Source of the DNA: a virus | Virus genome (UHGV): UHGV-0179803 | Strand: one strand, 5' to 3' | DNA length: 64,000 nucleotides | In this document: piece after piece, positions 50,733-61,838 of the stretch | How the letters are laid out: the number at the start of each line of letters is the position of its first letter | Numbering within the stretch: the first letter of the stretch is position 1 | Notes under the pieces: model-generated | Database searches by the model: none | The model's input: only the letters and a program-made list of their open reading frames with translations | What the model was told of the DNA's origin: nothing | Program-made: the position numbers and the translations under genes

Positions 50733-50760
50733 TTGATCAGGTTACGGCCTAGTGTATTCT
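50733..50760 (+). promoter_or_regulatory. sigma70-like promoter of first micro-gene
   Basis: TTGATC-16 nt-TATTCT. Confidence 0.45.
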
Positions 50761-50828
50761 ATAGGTGAAGGGAAACAAAGGGGAAACGGAAAGCAAAACA
50801 CCAGGCCGCAAGGCAGGAGGAAAATAAA

Positions 50829-51005
50829 ATGAAAGGCATGGTTAACAACAACAACGTAAAAGAGAGGGAAATTATTGTTAATGGTCGTGAGATTGACAAT
50901 AAACGCCGGAAAGCTATGCGTGATGCCCTGGTCAACTGGTTGGATTATGAAAAAATGATGGTAATGGCAGCGGGTGCCGCAGCTGGTGAATTTAACCACA
51001 GATAA
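50829..51005 (+). CDS. micro-gene product (58 aa)
   Basis: ATG after AGGAGGAAAATAAA; below ORF-track cutoff. Confidence 0.4.
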   Translation: MKGMVNNNNVKEREIIVNGREIDNKRRKAMRDALVNWLDYEKMMVMAAGAAAGEFNHR

Positions 51006-51021
51006 CCACAGGGGGGCAAAG

Positions 51022-51216
51022 GTGTTAGCTTATAATCTTCCAGGCCGTCGCCGTACGGTTGCCGACCAGGTAACGGCAAAGGCAGACGTAACAATCAACA
51101 ACGGGCAGGGCCTTTACAAGTTTAAACGGGGGAACAGCTATACGATCCAGTTTCTTAACCGTTGTGCTTTAACACCTGGTCAGATCAACCATTGGTTTAA
51201 AGCTAAAAAATTTTAA
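51022..51216 (+). CDS. micro-gene product (start uncertain)
   Basis: GTG after AGGGGGG; ORF-track frame 50974..51216. Confidence 0.35.
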   Translation: MLAYNLPGRRRTVADQVTAKADVTINNGQGLYKFKRGNSYTIQFLNRCALTPGQINHWFKAKKF

Positions 51217-51224
51217 AAAATTAG

Positions 51225-51255
51225 TTGACACCAGAAAGAAATAAAGTATTATAGA
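51225..51255 (+). promoter_or_regulatory. sigma70 promoter
   Basis: TTGACA-17 nt-ATTATA followed by conserved GAAAGCAGTA box. Confidence 0.6.
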
Positions 51256-51301
51256 TAGTGAAAGCAGTACACAAGGTTAACAAAATATAAGGAGTAACAT
51301 C

Positions 51302-51703
51302 ATGAGCGCTTTTAACACTGATTTCGATTTCTCTGGTCTGGAAGAAGTTCGCGATCTTCGTAACTGCCGCCGCGAAAACGGTTTTTATAAATCTCTGGAC
51401 CTGGTGGCACTGGACCACAAAATGGACCTGGAAGAAGTAGCAACGATTCGTTTCTACCAGTCACCGCGCGGTAACACTGTTTACTGTGTAGTATGGGTAC
51501 ATGAAGCAGGGCACGAATTTTATGCCACTGCTGGCGGGAAAGCTGGTGGCTATGGTTACGATAAAGAGGAGGCCGCATTACGGGAAGCTATCGAGGCGAT
51601 GGGTGTAAAAGCTGGCGATTATGCTCACCCTGAAAAATTTTTAATCCAGCTTGCTCGCTACTTCGGATATGAAAAAGCTAAAGTGATTGAAGCACACGCA
51701 TAA
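51302..51703 (+). CDS. hypothetical protein
   Basis: 133 aa; AAGGAG upstream. Confidence 0.55.
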   Translation: MSAFNTDFDFSGLEEVRDLRNCRRENGFYKSLDLVALDHKMDLEEVATIRFYQSPRGNTVYCVVWVHEAGHEFYATAGGKAGGYGYDKEEAALREAIEAMGVKAGDYAHPEKFLIQLARYFGYEKAKVIEAHA

Positions 51704-51744
51704 GCTGCCTTTTAGATGGCCCCCTGGTGGGGCCATTGATAAAG
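51704..51744 (+). repeat. conserved intergenic hairpin element, copy a
   Basis: GCTGCCTTTTAGATGGCCCCCTGGTGGGGCCATTGATAAAG directly after a stop codon. Confidence 0.5.
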
Positions 51745-51780
51745 GTAACTTGGGGCAACAATAACCGAGAGAAAGAAAAT

Positions 51781-52215
51781 ATGAAACGTTTACCACGCTG
51801 GATCCGCTTTATTAATAAACTTGCCGCAGATGAAAAAATCCAGGCTATGCATAAAGATAACCGCGAACGCCGTGCTGCCTTACGAGATTATCGCCGCATG
51901 TTGGCAAAGTTAGCCAATAAAAATGGCGTTCTTAAACCGTTCCGCAAAGTGATCCACCTGGTCGCTATGGGAGCGCCTAAGGTGGCAAACGTTCCAAACG
52001 TCCATAAGATTGATGACCGCGACGTTGTAAGAGATATTGATAAAGATTTTTCTCCGAAGGCCATCAATCAGCGGATCAACAGCTGCAAAAATAAGAAAGA
52101 TCTTGATAATTTGTTAGATAGCCTCGACGCTTTAGGGTGTGATTATGATTTCTTAGATGACAAGATTAATAAAAAATACCGCGAATTGGCTGGTTATCGC
52201 GTCAACCGGATTTAA
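51781..52215 (+). CDS. hypothetical basic protein
   Basis: 144 aa from ATG (MKRLPRW) after GAGAGAAAG. Confidence 0.5.
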   Translation: MKRLPRWIRFINKLAADEKIQAMHKDNRERRAALRDYRRMLAKLANKNGVLKPFRKVIHLVAMGAPKVANVPNVHKIDDRDVVRDIDKDFSPKAINQRINSCKNKKDLDNLLDSLDALGCDYDFLDDKINKKYRELAGYRVNRI

Positions 52216-52428
52216 CATATCAGAATAGTTGGCCCTGGTGGATCCGATCCGTGCACGGTCCAGGGTATGCCCGAAAACCTCCCCCATTACGCCGCTACGC
52301 CTGTTTTGAAGGTGTGGCGGTGTAGTTGCACCTCTTTGCAAAACACCTCGCCATAATACTTATTTGATGCCTTATTTTCGATACGCTCAAATAATGACCA
52401 ATCAATCGCCCCCACCATGATTTTTTTC

Positions 52429-52456
52429 TTGCAATCCCCCAATGTATGAATACAAT
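52429..52456 (+). promoter_or_regulatory. sigma70-like promoter
   Basis: TTGCAA-16 nt-TACAAT. Confidence 0.5.
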
Positions 52457-52502
52457 AACAATTGAAGGCAGTATTAACAAAAACACAAGAAGGGGAAACA
52501 AA

Positions 52503-59929: not shown

Positions 59930-60412
59930 ATGAAAGCGTTCAAATATGTTTTAGCGGCCCTGGCGATGGTTATCGGTGTAAATGTGAATGCTGGCGGTTT
60001 TAGAGTCGAGGCCCCCGAGCATATCAATCCGGTTTATGTGAAAGAAATTTTAATGAATTGCGCCGGGGAAATGGTTGCACCTGATGCGGTGTTTAATCCT
60101 GATGCACCGATCAACGTTAAAAAAGGTTGGCTGGCTAAAGCTGACAAAGAATGTAAAACATTGGTAAATAATGTTATCGTTCACGCCCTGATTGTTGACC
60201 TGATTATCAAGAAAGGCCCTGAAAATATGAAGGGCATGGACGAAGAGGAGTTTAAAGAGTATTTCTATAACGAAGAAATGAAAGTGGAGAATTACCATTT
60301 TGATGAAAACGGTTATGAAGATGTTAAAGCTAACTTGAAAGATGTTTACAATCTTGCGCTTGAAAATCCTAAAGCCGCCCATGCTATCAAGGTGCGAATG
60401 ATGGGAAAATAA
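59930..60412 (+). CDS. secreted/periplasmic protein
   Basis: 160 aa from ATG after AAGAGGAAAAG; signal-peptide-like MKAFKYVLAALAMVIGVNVNA. Confidence 0.55.
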   Translation: MKAFKYVLAALAMVIGVNVNAGGFRVEAPEHINPVYVKEILMNCAGEMVAPDAVFNPDAPINVKKGWLAKADKECKTLVNNVIVHALIVDLIIKKGPENMKGMDEEEFKEYFYNEEMKVENYHFDENGYEDVKANLKDVYNLALENPKAAHAIKVRMMGK

Positions 60413-60417
60413 AAGTA

Positions 60418-60445
60418 TTGACAAGCTGCCAGGTTGTTGTAAGAT
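60418..60445 (+). promoter_or_regulatory. sigma70-like promoter
   Basis: TTGACA-16 nt-TAAGAT. Confidence 0.55.
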
Positions 60446-60489
60446 GTAAATAAAAGAAGTACCACACCAAATAAGAGGAGTACCAAATC

Positions 60490-60669
60490 ATGAAACGGAA
60501 TATTAAAAAGGTCAACAACCTGGTAAATGTTGCAATGCGTGAACGTGAAAATGCTCTAGACCTTCTCCCCGATGACGATATCGATGAGGAGGTGGCAGAA
60601 AAAGCCGTCTACCTGGCTAAAAACCTTGAGAATTTCGACATGCACGAACTGTTAAAAATGGCCCTGTAA
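60490..60669 (+). CDS. micro-gene product (59 aa)
   Basis: ATG after AAGAGGAG; acidic middle (DLLPDDDIDEE); below ORF-track cutoff. Confidence 0.4.
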   Translation: MKRNIKKVNNLVNVAMRERENALDLLPDDDIDEEVAEKAVYLAKNLENFDMHELLKMAL

Positions 60670-60721
60670 GGCGGGGCCGATACCCCGCCAGCTATCCACC
60701 AAATCGAAAGGAGTGATTATT

Positions 60722-61018
60722 ATGTTTATCCCTGCAAACGGTTTATTCTTCTTTGACGGTATGATCGACAATGCCGCCGTAATGGTCGAGATTGCCAACA
60801 AAAACGGCGGCCAGGTGATGGCATTCCGTGATGACCATGACCATGATCGATGGTTAGAGGTCGAGATCCAAAAAGTGGACGAAAAAAGCTATCTAGTGAT
60901 CTACCGCCTCTTTGAAGACGGTCGCCAGGAGGCAGGGGATCAGGCCATCTTCCCGCGCTACATGGTCCAGGGTGCGATCATCGCTTTCGTGAACGATGTT
61001 TTCCCTGTTGAAGAATAA
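60722..61018 (+). CDS. hypothetical protein
   Basis: 98 aa from ATG 8 nt after AAGGAG. Confidence 0.5.
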   Translation: MFIPANGLFFFDGMIDNAAVMVEIANKNGGQVMAFRDDHDHDRWLEVEIQKVDEKSYLVIYRLFEDGRQEAGDQAIFPRYMVQGAIIAFVNDVFPVEE

Positions 61019-61225
61019 CCGACTATACTCGAAAGCTGAAAATCAAAAAATAGCCCATCTAATCGCCACACAGGCGGGATAAACCTGGGGAGGCCTTGCA
61101 AGTGCATAGCCTCCTTTTTCATGCCCTTAAAACGCTTCCTGTTGCGTTTCCTGCGATACGGTCCAGGCCGTGACGGCGGTCCGGTCCGGTGTAGGGTGTT
61201 CAAATGTTGTAACTAAAAATAATCC

Positions 61226-61253
61226 TTGCACCGATTCACAAATAGGCTATAAT
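61226..61253 (+). promoter_or_regulatory. sigma70-like promoter
   Basis: TTGCAC-16 nt-TATAAT followed by GAAAGAGGTAATTACC box. Confidence 0.55.
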
Positions 61254-61297
61254 AAAAATGAAAGAGGTAATTACCTCACATAATAAGGGGCAAAATC

Positions 61298-61555
61298 ATG
61301 AAAGGCTGGATTAAAAAGGTGACCGAAAAACGTTTTAACGCCATTTGGGATCTTATTGAAAAGGAAGAAGGTGCCTCAAGCCGCTACCTCAATAATCTTG
61401 AATTTCATTACGTGGAAGCGATGAATGCAGAACATGACCACAAAGGCGGCGCGGATGATTTTGCAAAAAGGTACGGTTTTAATAATGCCAACGAGATGAT
61501 CGAGGCGGTTGTACTCCAGGCAGAAGAAGACTACGCAGAAAGGGCGCTTGGTTAA
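61298..61555 (+). CDS. hypothetical protein
   Basis: 85 aa; AAGGGGCAAAATC upstream. Confidence 0.5.
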   Translation: MKGWIKKVTEKRFNAIWDLIEKEEGASSRYLNNLEFHYVEAMNAEHDHKGGADDFAKRYGFNNANEMIEAVVLQAEEDYAERALG

Positions 61556-61598
61556 TACACGGGCCGAAAGGCCCACCACACAAAGAGGAGTAAAAATT

Positions 61599-61793
61599 AT
61601 GGCACTTAAAAAATTAACTGAAAAAACTCGTTGGGATATGATCGACGGGGAAGTCTATATTTTCGCCCGTAAACCTGGCGATCAAAAATGGGTAAAAGCG
61701 TTCACTTGTCACCCTGCTGTTATTGACCTCATTAAAAGTAAAGGCCTACGTGAAGCAGTGGCACGTAGTCTATTAATCCCTTGCAAAGAATAA
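61599..61793 (+). CDS. hypothetical small protein
   Basis: 64 aa from ATG after AAGAGGAG. Confidence 0.5.
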   Translation: MALKKLTEKTRWDMIDGEVYIFARKPGDQKWVKAFTCHPAVIDLIKSKGLREAVARSLLIPCKE

Positions 61794-61815
61794 TATAACT
61801 GACGAAATAATAAGA

Positions 61816-61838
61816 GGCCGCAAATAAGCGGCCTTTTT
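61816..61838 (+). terminator. intrinsic terminator (copy 2 of the repeated hairpin)
   Basis: GGCCGC-AAATAA-GCGGCC followed by TTTTTG; identical hairpin to 58297..58321. Confidence 0.7.

What the first reader, a model, noticed from the sequence alone, without database searches (positions are those of the whole stretch)
50733..61838. About 11 kb of promoter-autonomous micro-genes bounded by two related non-coding repeat hubs
Between 50.8 and 61.8 kb I count about 32 ORFs of 28-160 aa on one strand. Most have their own near-consensus sigma70 promoter, a stereotyped purine-rich leader (a GAAAG(C/A)AGTAA box after the -10, then AGGAG and an (A/C)AT(C/A)ATG start context) and a GC hairpin behind them. 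The products include tiny membrane peptides, a very acidic protein, an Arg-rich protein and a signal-peptide protein, and none carries a motif I recognise. The block is flanked by two non-coding hubs (49.6-50.8 kb and 61.8-64.0 kb) that share the same iteron family and GGTCC-type palindromes, and the distal hub has three DnaA boxes. This is the architecture expected of a host-takeover or anti-defence island expressed by host RNA polymerase on entry. It is reminiscent of the first-step-transfer/terminal-repeat regions of T5-like phages, though the rest of the gene order does not obviously match T5.
Basis: partly seen in the sequence, partly recalled or inferred. Interest (0 to 1): 0.75.

Follow-up and report, generated by a model that had tools for sequence, protein, structure and literature searches.

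The report
Phage accessory-gene arm, two non-coding hubs
This is the fast-changing early accessory-gene arm of an undescribed relative of E. coli phage rV5, an ordinary kind of region, but it lies between two non-coding repeat regions whose counterparts in a related phage tolerate few or no transposon insertions and still have no known function.

Summary
The observation largely holds. Positions 50,829-61,793 carry 32 small + strand genes (28-160 aa). There are 12 near-consensus sigma-70 promoters on that strand and none on the other, where 0.1 would be expected by chance. GC hairpins follow about half of the stop codons. Non-coding repeat regions lie on both sides, and the distal one has three perfect DnaA boxes. 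"Most genes have their own promoter" is overstated: about half do.

The window is a distant relative of rV5-like (Vequintavirinae) myoviruses, and the same layout exists in rV5 and in Bas54/MaxBurger. The block works like the hyperplastic regions of T4-type phages, where promoter/stem-loop cassettes (PeSLs) drive small ORFan genes. Against an 89%-identical relative it shows 10 whole-gene insertions or replacements.

Published transposon data for Bas54 show the homologous arm is almost entirely dispensable in K-12. A few of its genes are needed only in clinical isolates.

The T5-like first-step-transfer reading is not supported, because reported genomes of this family are circularly permuted and packaged by the headful.

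The hubs are the interesting part. Hub 2 corresponds to the insertion-free ~2 kb intergenic region of Bas54. The core of hub 1 is also insertion-intolerant there. I infer that the hubs are replication origins or other essential cis-acting elements. This is not shown.

The parts
49612..50828 (.). Hub 1: a 1.2 kb non-coding repeat region. It corresponds to rV5 L001 ~4675-5600 and MaxBurger/Bas54 81181-82200.
   Evidence: No credible gene. 67-79% identical in patches to rV5-like phages. The tiny ORFs annotated there in Bas54 (bas54_0100-0102) are not kept as ORFs in the window or its close relative.
49921..50200 (.). Core of hub 1: three ~38-nt repeats (49923-50097) followed by an AT-rich stretch.
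   Evidence: Repeat family D2. This is the most conserved segment of the whole region against the 89%-identical relative, at 96.7-99%. It maps onto bas54_0101, which had 0 of 11 TA sites hit and is called 'Essential'.
50205..50371 (+). Array of five direct iterons, core ACTATWAATCACYGT, spaced 16-42 nt.
   Evidence: Present in the close relatives and absent from rV5.
50377..50393 (-). Family-wide conserved box TTTGAGAATGATT. It resembles a Fur box (AATGATAATCATTCTC on the + strand).
   Evidence: Invariant in six genomes. An exact 13-mer occurs only here and in hub 2. rV5 and L014 carry copies matching 17 of 19 positions of the Fur consensus.
50409..50480 (-). Leftward promoter-like site (TTGACA-16-TATTAT with an upstream TG, 50480 to 50453) followed by four G-tracts on the transcribed strand (50409-50441).
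   Evidence: Promoter scan scores it 11 of 12 with TG. The -10 and the C-rich block are invariant in six genomes. G-tract motif found. Promoter activity is inferred.
50829..61793 (+). Block of 32 small genes (28-160 aa), all on the + strand.
   Evidence: Gene models and products. PHROG and Pfam scans. 28 of 32 are conserved in the close relative and 14 of 32 in Bas54 (13 in rV5), with shuffled order.
51225..51270 (+). Example of a type A cassette: A-rich upstream tract, TTGACA-N16-TAnnnT, then the GAAAGMAGTAA box 6-8 nt later. Other copies start at 53234, 53918, 54389, 57139, 59234, 59859 and 60418. Variants without the box start at 52685, 56368 and 56543.
51710..51744 (+). Example of a type B cassette: TTTTAGATGGCC-loop-GGCCATYNATAAAG placed just after a stop codon. 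Other copies start at 54361 (with TTGACA inside the loop), 54801 and 57410. A variant lies at ~53733.
   Evidence: In rV5, Bas54-type phages and L006 the loop carries TTGACT or TTGACA, so the cassette is a promoter with a stem-loop over its -35.
55792..55820 (+). Intrinsic terminator after the Arg-rich gene.
58298..58321 (+). Intrinsic terminator GGCCGCAAATAAGCGGCC followed by six T. Its core is identical to the terminator that closes the block.
61812..61838 (.). Two-way terminator hairpin that closes the block.
61839..64000 (.). Hub 2, cut off by the end of the window. It is the non-coding region at the point where two gene arms converge, and corresponds to the rV5 'non-coding' box and the Bas54 bas54_0134/0135 intergenic region.
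   Evidence: Position and anchor sequences are conserved. In the close relative it runs from L007 10751 to ~14265 and is followed by - strand genes.
62340..62490 (.). AT-rich segment (up to 87% A+T per 100 bp), a candidate DNA-unwinding element.
   Evidence: In five phages an AT-rich 100-bp window lies 106-172 bp upstream of the anchor ATGGCGCGAC. In four of them it is the richest window of the hub; in L006 it ties with a distal window.
62502..62926 (.). Two copies of TATGCAACGATAACATGGCGC (62502 and 62903) enclosing four copies of AATAACGCTGAG in alternating orientation.
   Evidence: 4 copies against 0.17 expected. rV5 has the same layout with a different 9-mer, GGCAACTAT.
63084..63130 (+). 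Tandem 11-nt repeats GTATAGGGGAA, giving four GGGG tracts.
   Evidence: A different repeat (GTATGCCTAA) occupies this position in the close relative.
63363..63402 (+). Tandem 10-nt repeats TCCTTTCGTT.
   Evidence: The segment is replaced in the close relative.
63440..63479 (-). Three perfect DnaA boxes (TTATCCACA) with start-to-start spacing of 12 and 19 nt.
   Evidence: The same boxes at the same spacing occur in the close relative L007. They are absent from the rV5 hub.
63691..63729 (+). Two iterons of the hub 1 type.
63788..63850 (+). Family-wide conserved core of hub 2, containing TTTGAGAATCATT. This is the hub 1 box in the opposite orientation.

Best explanation
The window comes from an undescribed lineage related to rV5-like (Vequintavirinae) virulent myoviruses.

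The 11 kb block is the far end of the long rightward gene arm that also carries the replication genes. It is a hyperplastic accessory region holding 32 small genes of unknown function. The genes are arranged singly or in groups of two or three behind repeated regulatory cassettes. Type A cassettes are consensus sigma-70 promoters with an A-rich upstream tract and a shared leader. Type B cassettes are GC stem-loops placed right after stop codons; in rV5 these stem-loops carry a -35 hexamer in their loop.

I infer that host RNA polymerase fires these promoters early in infection, and that the stem-loops damp read-through from upstream units. I also infer that the repeated cassettes supply short homologies at which whole genes are gained, lost, swapped and reordered. 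This is how the promoter/stem-loop (PeSL) cassettes of T4-type phages are reported to work.

Most products are probably dispensable in laboratory hosts. A minority matter only in particular hosts, through counter-defence or host takeover.

The two flanking hubs are conserved non-coding elements of this phage family. They are not genome ends. In the relative Bas54 the hub 2 homologue took no transposon insertions, and the ORFs annotated over the hub 1 core took none or few. My inference for their mechanism is that they are replication origins or origin-like cis elements. Each combines arrays of short phased repeats that change sequence between lineages, an AT-rich stretch, a shared conserved box, and promoter-like sites that would transcribe into G-rich sequence. 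In this lineage hub 2 also has three host DnaA boxes.
For: SHOWN HERE.
- rV5-like gene content and synteny.
- 12 strand-specific consensus promoters against 0.1 expected, and hairpins after 14 of 32 stop codons against 7% of controls.
- Both cassette types recur in the window and its relatives. The rV5 version has TTGACT or TTGACA in the loop.
- 10 insertions or replacements, all but one at gene boundaries, against an 89%-identical relative.
- Only 14 of 32 genes are shared with Bas54 (13 with rV5). Their order is shuffled and one homologue sits on the other arm.
- Hub 2 shares its position and three anchor motifs with rV5 and Bas54.
- The hub 1 core is 97-99% conserved where the surrounding genes are 89%.
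- The two hubs share an exact 13-mer found nowhere else in the window and a lineage-specific iteron.
- An AT-rich window lies at a fixed distance from the anchor in five phages.
- Three DnaA boxes are conserved in the close relative.

FROM THE LITERATURE.
- rV5 has a 'non-coding' box between convergent genes 163 and 164, and sigma-70-type promoters across the genome (PMC3606486).
- bas54_0101 had 0 of 11 TA sites hit. Genes 0104-0134 are mostly non-essential. Genes 0106, 0132-0134 and 0140 are depleted in a clinical isolate (10.1101/2025.11.20.689424).
- Properties of PeSL cassettes (PMC2839356).
Against: - No transcription data exist for this lineage, so early timing is inferred from promoter sequence alone.
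- The type B stem-loops lack a following U-tract, so a terminator role is uncertain. In the window lineage two of them have lost the -35 hexamer.
- I inspected the coincidence of indel breakpoints with cassettes but did not test it statistically.
- For the origin idea, no initiator protein was identified.
- The DnaA boxes are absent from rV5 and Bas54, so they cannot explain the family-wide constraint.
- A homing-endonuclease gene sits inside hub 2 in the close relative, so part of the hub tolerates insertion in nature.
- The G-tract count is only 4 against 1.4 expected.
- The lack of insertions in Bas54 could reflect polar or antisense effects of the transposon rather than a cis-acting function.
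Confidence: 0.7

Rival explanations
1. On this view the block is a T5-like pre-early region that enters the cell first, is bounded by injection-stop-type repeats, and may lie in a terminal repeat.
For: - Small genes behind strong sigma-70 promoters.
- Repeat-rich boundaries with DnaA boxes. From my own recollection, the T5 injection-stop region is similar; I did not check this here.
Against: - The genome is an rV5-like myovirus.
- Relatives are circularly permuted, terminally redundant and headful-packaged (PMC8407724, PMC13211470, PMC3475682), so no fixed end enters first.
- The block is internal and single-copy in complete records.
- The DnaA boxes are lineage-specific.
- No match to a family annotated as a T5 pre-early protein.
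Confidence: 0.03
2. The block is a dedicated counter-defence island. On this view most of the 32 products inhibit specific bacterial immune systems.
For: - Homologues of two block genes (bas54_0106 and bas54_0108) and the three Bas54 genes next to hub 2 (bas54_0132-0134) are needed only in clinical isolates.
- bas54_0140 on the sister arm counters a predicted defence system.
- Gene turnover is high.
- One product is very acidic and gives a confident model (pLDDT 94).
- In an rV5-like phage, an intergenic repeat evolved into an RNA antitoxin mimic (PMC3475682).
Against: - No product matches a known anti-defence family in Pfam or PHROGs.
- The acidic protein has no fold match to DNA mimics or to anything else in the PDB; the best E-value is 1.7.
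- Vequintavirinae are reported as exceptionally sensitive to restriction-modification (PMC8594841).
- Most Bas54 homologues show no host-dependent phenotype in the one comparison table I read.
- The homologue of 55212-55550 is called essential outright.
Confidence: 0.3
3. The hubs are not origins. On this view they encode essential non-coding RNAs, or act as regulatory or insulating zones, for example to handle convergent transcription.
For: - Conserved promoter-like sites inside both hubs, including an invariant -10 in hub 1 that points against the flanking genes.
- Hub 2 lies where two arms converge.
- Long intergenic stretches inside the block are also more conserved than the genes.
- There is a precedent for functional non-coding RNA in an rV5-like phage (PMC3475682).
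Against: - No Rfam family matches.
- No convincing terminators inside the hubs.
- The hubs are dominated by arrays of short phased direct and inverted repeats whose sequence changes between lineages while their position is kept. That is typical of protein-binding sites rather than of a structured RNA.
- The conserved cores do not vary, so covariation cannot be assessed.
Confidence: 0.3
4. The hubs are packaging-initiation (pac) sites or recombination hot spots.
For: - Reported relatives use headful packaging (PMC13211470).
- The hubs carry repeated motifs, for example CTCTTCAGG 4-5 times in the distal part of hub 2.
- Directly repeated iterons occur in both hubs.
Against: - By general knowledge, pac sites usually lie in or beside the small-terminase gene. 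The terminase operon of Bas54 is about 80-95 kb away from the hubs (annotation table read).
- PhageTerm reports for relatives give permuted genomes with no preferred end at these positions (PMC8407724).
Confidence: 0.08

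Closest known systems
Hyperplastic regions with PeSL (promoter-early/stem-loop) cassettes in T4-type phages RB49, phi1, PST and nt-1 (Arbiol et al. 2010, PMC2839356; Comeau et al. 2014, PMC4122927)
   Same: - Consensus sigma-70 promoters with an AT-rich upstream tract.
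- A GC stem-loop in variable register with the promoter, including over the -35 hexamer.
- A Shine-Dalgarno site and start codon at the 3' end of the cassette.
- Placement before small ORFan genes in the most variable part of the genome.
- Whole-gene insertions and replacements between close relatives.
- Several rV5 genes in this arm are annotated as similar to RB49 proteins.
   Different: - The phage family is different: rV5-like, with a T7-type primase-helicase and a PolA-type polymerase.
- The cassette sequences are unrelated and specific to this family or lineage.
- The type B stem-loop lacks a U-tract.
- Promoter activity, terminator activity and mini-circle formation were shown for RB49 and phi1 and were not tested here.
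The 'non-coding' region of phage rV5 between genes 163 and 164 (Kropinski et al. 2013, PMC3606486), which is the ~2 kb insertion-free intergenic region of Bas54 between bas54_0134 and bas54_0135 (HIDEN-SEQ preprint 10.1101/2025.11.20.689424)
   Same: Hub 2 is the homologue of this region. It follows the homologue of rV5 ORF167/bas54_0131, lies at the convergence of two arms, shares the anchors ATGGCGCGAC, GATATTTGAGAAT and CTCTTCAGG, and keeps an AT-rich segment at a fixed distance from the first anchor.
   Different: - Overall sequence identity is low, with only two alignable patches at 73-76%.
- The repeat arrays have been exchanged: AATAACGCTGAG replaces GGCAACTAT, and DnaA boxes replace the GT(A/G)AACAG array.
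- Neither source proposes a function.
Transcription-primed origins (T7 primary origin, T4 oriF/oriG, ColE1) and iteron/DnaA-box origins of plasmids and phage P1. This comparison rests on my own recollection of these systems.
   Same: - A promoter-like site followed by G-rich transcribed sequence and then AT-rich DNA.
- Phased short repeats.
- Clustered DnaA boxes in this lineage.
- A T7-like replisome encoded upstream in the window.
   Different: - No initiator gene was identified.
- There is no sequence similarity to plasmid origins.
- There are two separate hubs rather than one origin.
- Origin activity is untested.
The T5 first-step-transfer (pre-early) region. Its properties are also recalled from memory and were not checked here.
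   Same: Small early genes behind strong host-type promoters, and repeat-rich boundaries with DnaA boxes.
   Different: - The virion and genome type differ.
- The genome is permuted rather than having fixed terminal repeats.
- There are no homologous proteins.
- The location in the genome is internal.

Membership tests
T5-like first-step-transfer / terminal-repeat pre-early region | The rest of the genome is T5-like (siphovirus modules and T5 gene order) | tested here: not met
   Tail fibres, rIIA, primase-helicase, PolA-type polymerase and nucleotide matches all point to rV5-like myoviruses.
T5-like first-step-transfer / terminal-repeat pre-early region | Fixed genome ends, with the block inside a long direct terminal repeat | not testable with these tools
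   The window carries no read or end information. Relatives are reported as circularly permuted or headful-packaged (PMC8407724, PMC13211470, PMC3475682). The block is internal and single-copy in complete records.
T5-like first-step-transfer / terminal-repeat pre-early region | Homologues of T5 pre-early proteins (A1, A2, Dmp) | tested here: not met
   All PHROG matches are to families of unknown function, and the three Pfam matches are unrelated.
T5-like first-step-transfer / terminal-repeat pre-early region | A repeat- and palindrome-rich boundary with DnaA boxes (injection-stop-like) | tested here: inconclusive
   Hub 2 has three DnaA boxes and many repeats. The boxes are lineage-specific, and the hub is homologous to an internal rV5 region.
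PeSL-type regulatory cassettes / hyperplastic region (T4-type phages) | A consensus sigma-70 promoter with an AT-rich upstream tract, repeated many times | tested here: met
   12 copies on the + strand against 0.1 expected, with A-tracts visible upstream.
PeSL-type regulatory cassettes / hyperplastic region (T4-type phages) | A GC-rich stem-loop in variable register with the promoter | tested here: met
   The type B stem-loop encloses the -35 at 54361 and in rV5, or stands alone. Perfect GC stems follow 14 of 32 stop codons.
PeSL-type regulatory cassettes / hyperplastic region (T4-type phages) | Cassettes sit before small ORFan genes in the most variable region, and indels between close relatives fall at the cassettes | tested here: met
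   10 insertions or replacements against the 89%-identical relative, all but one at gene boundaries. Gene order is shuffled relative to Bas54. Breakpoint coincidence was inspected, not tested statistically.
PeSL-type regulatory cassettes / hyperplastic region (T4-type phages) | Demonstrated promoter and terminator activity; mini-circle formation | not testable with these tools
   Needs reporter assays and PCR across the junctions.
PeSL-type regulatory cassettes / hyperplastic region (T4-type phages) | Host genome is a T4-type phage and the cassette sequences are homologous to those of RB49 and phi1 | tested here: not met
   The genome is rV5-like. I therefore file this as 'works like' and not as a member.
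Vequintavirinae conserved non-coding region (rV5 163/164; Bas54 0134/0135) | Position after the homologue of rV5 ORF167/bas54_0131, at the convergence of two arms | tested here: met
   Convergence is seen in the close relative.
Vequintavirinae conserved non-coding region (rV5 163/164; Bas54 0134/0135) | Shared sequence anchors and absence of genes | tested here: met
   ATGGCGCGAC, GATATTTGAGAAT and CTCTTCAGG are present in all six genomes. No credible ORF.
Vequintavirinae conserved non-coding region (rV5 163/164; Bas54 0134/0135) | Intolerance to insertion | not testable with these tools
   Known only for Bas54, from the preprint.
Iteron / DnaA-box or transcription-primed replication origin | Clustered initiator-binding repeats (iterons, DnaA boxes) | tested here: met
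   The repeat sequence changes between lineages while its position is kept.
Iteron / DnaA-box or transcription-primed replication origin | An adjacent AT-rich unwinding region | tested here: met
   Up to 87% A+T at 62344-62484, with an AT-rich window at the same offset from the anchor in five phages. An AT-rich stretch in the hub 1 core is 99% conserved.
Iteron / DnaA-box or transcription-primed replication origin | A cognate initiator protein encoded nearby | tested here: inconclusive
   No Rep-like or DnaA-like domain in the block or in the genes just upstream. Small DNA-binding proteins could be missed.
Iteron / DnaA-box or transcription-primed replication origin | Origin activity | not testable with these tools
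   Needs marker-frequency analysis, 2D gels or plasmid-replication assays.

The most novel reading that the evidence does not exclude
The two hubs may be a matched pair of essential cis-acting elements of V5-like phages. The likeliest form is a pair of transcription-primed replication origins that recruit host factors: DnaA in this lineage, and a Fur-like box family-wide. On this reading the hubs share a common binding protein and enclose the accessory-gene arm. That arm would then be copied, and possibly amplified or exchanged, as a unit early in infection.
Probability: 0.25. Interest if true: 0.7.

Novelty: new variant of a known kind. Interest (0 to 1): 0.5.

Why it matters
The gene block itself is what large virulent phages usually carry. 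It still extends the promoter/stem-loop "mobile cassette" model of gene shuffling from T4-type phages to an unrelated and very common group of E. coli phages. It also yields a short list of candidates, because the homologues of 51781-52215 and 54456-54794 already show host-dependent phenotypes in Bas54.

The hubs matter more. A 2025 transposon study flagged the ~2 kb intergenic region of Bas54 as functionally important without explaining it. This analysis adds four things:
- The element is conserved in architecture across the family.
- A second, smaller hub appears to be under the same kind of constraint. It is annotated in Bas54 as tiny "essential" ORFs that are not conserved as ORFs.
- The two hubs share a conserved box.
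- The anatomy suggests concrete, testable origin models.

Locating the origin or origins of V5-like phages would help engineering and basic study of a group widely used in phage therapy collections.

Tried and rejected
- Nucleotide search of the block and of hub 2 against deposited phages found no close relative. Distant-mode searches and scans of viral contigs were needed.
- Rfam, at gathering and at permissive thresholds, found nothing in the hubs or the block except a chance-level hit.
- Sequence searches of four products against the PDB found nothing.
- The acidic protein (54456-54794) gave a confident model (pLDDT 94): a coiled-coil hairpin with a small apical domain. It has no significant PDB fold match, so I dropped the DNA-mimic idea as untestable here.
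- The model of 51781-52215 was too poor to use (pLDDT 57), so I did not run a fold search on it.
- Comparing the hubs with plasmids, to look for a borrowed origin, found only a 137.6 kb E. coli 'plasmid' record that looks like an rV5-like phage genome.
- I looked for per-site transposon counts across the hubs in the preprint's supplement, but they were not retrievable. Only gene-level calls were used.
- I considered linking the CCWGG enrichment to a phage Dcm-like methyltransferase. Three candidate ORFs around 30.9-32.9 kb gave no Pfam methyltransferase match, so the link is unsupported.
- I considered reading bas54_0101 and bas54_0102 as real genes. I rejected this because neither reading frame is intact in the window lineage.
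- I considered a G-quadruplex or R-loop signature. It stays a weak lead, with 4 motifs against 1.4 expected.

Full report
WHAT THE WINDOW IS

The left 49 kb encodes tail fibres, three tRNAs, rIIA, a primase-helicase, a PolA-type DNA polymerase and homing endonucleases. Nucleotide searches hit only rV5-like (Vequintavirinae) phages, in short patches at 73-88% identity. The window is therefore a distant, undeposited relative of that family.

Metagenome-derived contigs of about 140 kb carry the same region at about 89% identity. These are L007+L015 from one contig, which I call REL1, and L014. Protein searches show about 20 further close relatives.

CHECKING THE OBSERVATION: THE GENE BLOCK

A codon-usage model trained on the long genes of the window, together with a Shine-Dalgarno check, supports most of 32 + strand gene models of 28-160 aa between 50,829 and 61,793. 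Some of the shortest, such as 56233-56340, are less certain.
- 22 of the 30 scanned match PHROG families, all of unknown function.
- Three pass Pfam cut-offs: DUF7249 (52769-53044), T7 gp1.1 (55565-55786) and a ParE-like toxin domain (59312-59578).

CHECKING THE OBSERVATION: PROMOTERS AND HAIRPINS

The pattern TTGACA-N16/17-TAnnnT occurs 12 times on the + strand of the block and never on the - strand. Random sequence gives 0.1. With about five weaker sites this makes roughly 17 promoters for 32 genes, so "most" is overstated.

Eight promoters share the box GAAAGMAGTAA 6-8 nt after the -10. This is where transcripts should start, so the box is a shared leader. The box is present in the close relatives and absent from rV5. 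I read it as common descent of a repeated cassette rather than a separate signal.

A perfect GC stem follows 14 of 32 stop codons, against 7% of control windows. Only three or four of these are canonical terminators.

A SECOND CASSETTE TYPE

Reading the intergenic regions shows a recurrent element, TTTTAGATGGCC-loop-GGCCATYNATAAAG, immediately after stop codons. It starts at 51710, 54361, 54801 and 57410, with a variant at ~53733.

In rV5, in Bas54-type phages and in L006 the loop reads TTGACT or TTGACA, so there the element is a promoter with a stem-loop over its -35. In the window, one copy (54361) has a full A-tract plus TTGACA inside the loop, and two copies have CCTGG in its place. One copy (57410) has a different stem sequence that still pairs. 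I did not test pairing statistically.

COMPARISON WITH KNOWN CASSETTES

This anatomy matches what Arbiol et al. describe for the PeSL cassettes of RB49 and phi1: consensus promoter, AT-rich upstream tract, GC stem-loop in variable register, ribosome-binding site and start codon, placed before ORFans in hyperplastic regions (PMC2839356).

The evolutionary behaviour matches as well.
- Against REL1 there are 10 insertions or replacements within the block's 11 kb. All but one fall at gene boundaries; the exception lies inside gene 51781-52215.
- Only 14 of 32 genes have homologues in Bas54 (13 in rV5). Their order is shuffled, and one homologue sits on the opposite arm.
- Several rV5 genes of this arm are annotated as similar to RB49 proteins.

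Because the phage is not T4-type and the cassette sequences are unrelated, I file this as "works like PeSL", not as a member.

WHAT THE GENES DO

I found no direct evidence for this lineage. MaxBurger turned out to be Bas54 (locus tags), so the HIDEN-SEQ transposon data apply to the homologous arm.
- Genes bas54_0104-0134 are nearly all "Non-essential" in K-12.
- The exceptions are 0110 (homologue of 55212-55550, called "Essential"), 0125 (reduced fitness), and 0130 and 0134 (intermediate).
- One comparison table also contains bas54_0140 at log2FC -5.48. I take it to be the CFE311 isolate, because the text ties bas54_0140 to a CFE311 defence system. In that table, 0106 (homologue of 51781-52215), 0126, 0127, 0132, 0133 and 0134 are significantly depleted.
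- The preprint's methods text notes depletion of 0108 (homologue of the acidic protein) in isolate CFE303.

This supports "accessory, with host-specific roles for a minority". It does not show that the block as a whole is a counter-defence island.

The acidic protein gives a confident model with no PDB fold match. Vequintavirinae are reported to be unusually sensitive to restriction-modification (PMC8594841).

THE T5 ANALOGY

Reported relatives are circularly permuted and headful-packaged (PMC8407724, PMC13211470, PMC3475682). The block is internal in complete genomes. The hubs share only short motifs. A fixed first-entering segment is therefore not expected.

HUB 2

In rV5 the block ends at ORF164. 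It is followed by a 2.6 kb gap, drawn as "non-coding" in the genome paper, and then by genes on the other strand. Bas54 has the same 2.5 kb gap between bas54_0134 and bas54_0135. The preprint reports no transposon insertions there and infers an important but unassigned role.

The window's hub 2 is homologous to this gap.
- The gene just before it (61298-61555) is the homologue of rV5 ORF167/bas54_0131.
- The anchors ATGGCGCGAC, GATATTTGAGAAT and CTCTTCAGG are present in all six genomes examined.
- In REL1 the hub runs about 3.5 kb. It includes an inserted HNH gene and is followed by - strand genes.

Inside the hub, in order:
- An AT-rich segment lies 106-172 bp upstream of the first anchor in five phages.
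- Two copies of a 24-mer enclose four copies of a 12-mer in alternating orientation. rV5 has the same design with a different 9-mer.
- Tandem 11-nt and 10-nt repeats follow. They are replaced by other repeats in REL1.
- Three perfect DnaA boxes are conserved in REL1. In rV5 a GT(A/G)AACAG array lies between the same anchors.
- Two iterons of the hub 1 type come next.
- A ~60-nt core is invariant family-wide.

HUB 1

Hub 1 is also conserved in the family. In Bas54 it is annotated as the tiny ORFs bas54_0100-0102.
- bas54_0101 had 0 of 11 TA sites hit and is called "Essential".
- bas54_0102 had 5 of 15 hit and is called "Strong fitness defect".
- Neither reading frame is intact in the window or REL1, and L014 lacks part of the segment. 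I therefore read the constraint as acting on non-coding sequence.

The stretch that maps onto bas54_0101 (49,921-50,200) is 97-99% identical to REL1, where genes average 89%.

Next to it lie, in order:
- five lineage-specific iterons;
- a Fur-box-like element that is invariant in six genomes;
- a C-rich block that is also invariant;
- a promoter-like site pointing leftward, against all flanking genes, scoring 11 of 12 plus an upstream TG.

The exact 13-mer TTTGAGAATSATT occurs only twice in the window, once in each hub and in opposite orientation.

HOW THE HUBS MOST LIKELY WORK (INFERENCE)

Four features are typical of replication origins: arrays of phased repeats that keep position but change sequence between lineages, adjacent AT-rich DNA, host-factor boxes, and promoter-like sites that would transcribe into G-rich sequence. 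The phage encodes a T7-type replisome, and T7 and T4 origins are transcription-primed (my own knowledge). I rate "origin or origin-like essential cis element" at about 0.4 for each hub.

The rivals are essential non-coding RNAs or insulator zones, and pac or recombination sites.

Weaknesses:
- No initiator was found.
- The DnaA boxes are lineage-specific.
- An HNH gene is tolerated inside part of hub 2.
- The G-tract statistics are weak.
- Transposon polarity could explain the lack of insertions.

VERDICT

The block is an ordinary kind of region, an early accessory arm, with a cassette system of a known kind in a new family. The flanking hubs correspond to a published but unexplained essential non-coding element, and here they gain a second member and a testable model.

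Noticed in passing
window 50000-62000: CCWGG (the Dcm/EcoRII site) is 3-4 times denser here than in the rest of the window: 59 sites in 11.1 kb against about 3.5 per 2 kb elsewhere. It is denser in coding and non-coding parts alike. GGCC is enriched as well. Three candidate ORFs checked gave no Pfam methyltransferase match.
   Followed up: partly
window 55787-56026, 56341-56649, 58287-58625: Three long intergenic stretches inside the block are more conserved against the 89%-identical relative (95.4%, 91.6% and 94.0%) than the genes are (89.2%). The middle one is a purine-rich leader, full of Shine-Dalgarno-like motifs, between two promoters. These may be non-coding RNAs or long regulatory leaders.
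   Followed up: partly
window 58298-58321 and 61815-61838: The same terminator core (GGCCGCAAATAAGCGGCC plus a T-run) occurs twice, 3.5 kb apart, in direct orientation. It is a possible site for deletion or exchange of the genes in between.
   Followed up: no
window 59312-59803: The gene at 59312-59578 carries a ParE-like toxin domain (Pfam PF24732, 43 bits). It is followed by a small acidic gene (59624-59803). The close relative has a 273-bp insertion between the two, so a tight toxin-antitoxin pair is doubtful.
   Followed up: partly
window 55565-55786: The Arg-rich 73-aa product belongs to the family of T7 gene 1.1 protein (Pfam PF08200, 37 bits). Its Bas54 homologue (bas54_0111) is non-essential.
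   Followed up: partly
window 50377-50393; L001 5019-5173; L014 4451-4469: A Fur-box-like sequence is conserved in hub 1 across the family. The rV5 and L014 copies match 17 of 19 positions of GATAATGATAATCATTATC. It could reflect iron-responsive control or a phage protein with similar specificity.
   Followed up: partly
window 6310, 11218, 22490, 38865: Four more perfect DnaA boxes lie outside the hubs, giving 7 perfect 9-mers in 64 kb where about 0.5 would be expected.
   Followed up: no
L007 13106-13816: The close relative has an HNH homing-endonuclease-like gene inserted in the distal part of hub 2, among the CTCTTCAGG repeats. That part of the hub therefore tolerates insertion in nature.
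   Followed up: partly
PLSDB record CP057073.1 (hits H75, H77): A 137.6 kb 'non-mobilizable plasmid' of E. coli from cattle faeces matches both hubs. It looks like an rV5-like phage genome recorded as a plasmid.
   Followed up: no
L008-L013 (viral contigs): The product of 61298-61555 has 73-75% identical homologues on contigs that lack every hub 2 anchor. These contigs seem to belong to a different phage type. This fits the rV5 annotation that its homologue resembles an RB49 protein, and fits exchange of these small genes between phage families.
   Followed up: partly
window 45812-46273 and 43349-44005: A Macro-domain protein and a 5'-nucleotidase (NT5C family) protein are encoded just upstream of the region studied.
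   Followed up: no
window 56733-56858: The homologue of this 41-aa gene lies on the opposite, converging arm in rV5 and Bas54 (bas54_0137). The gene has therefore moved across hub 2 and changed strand.
   Followed up: partly
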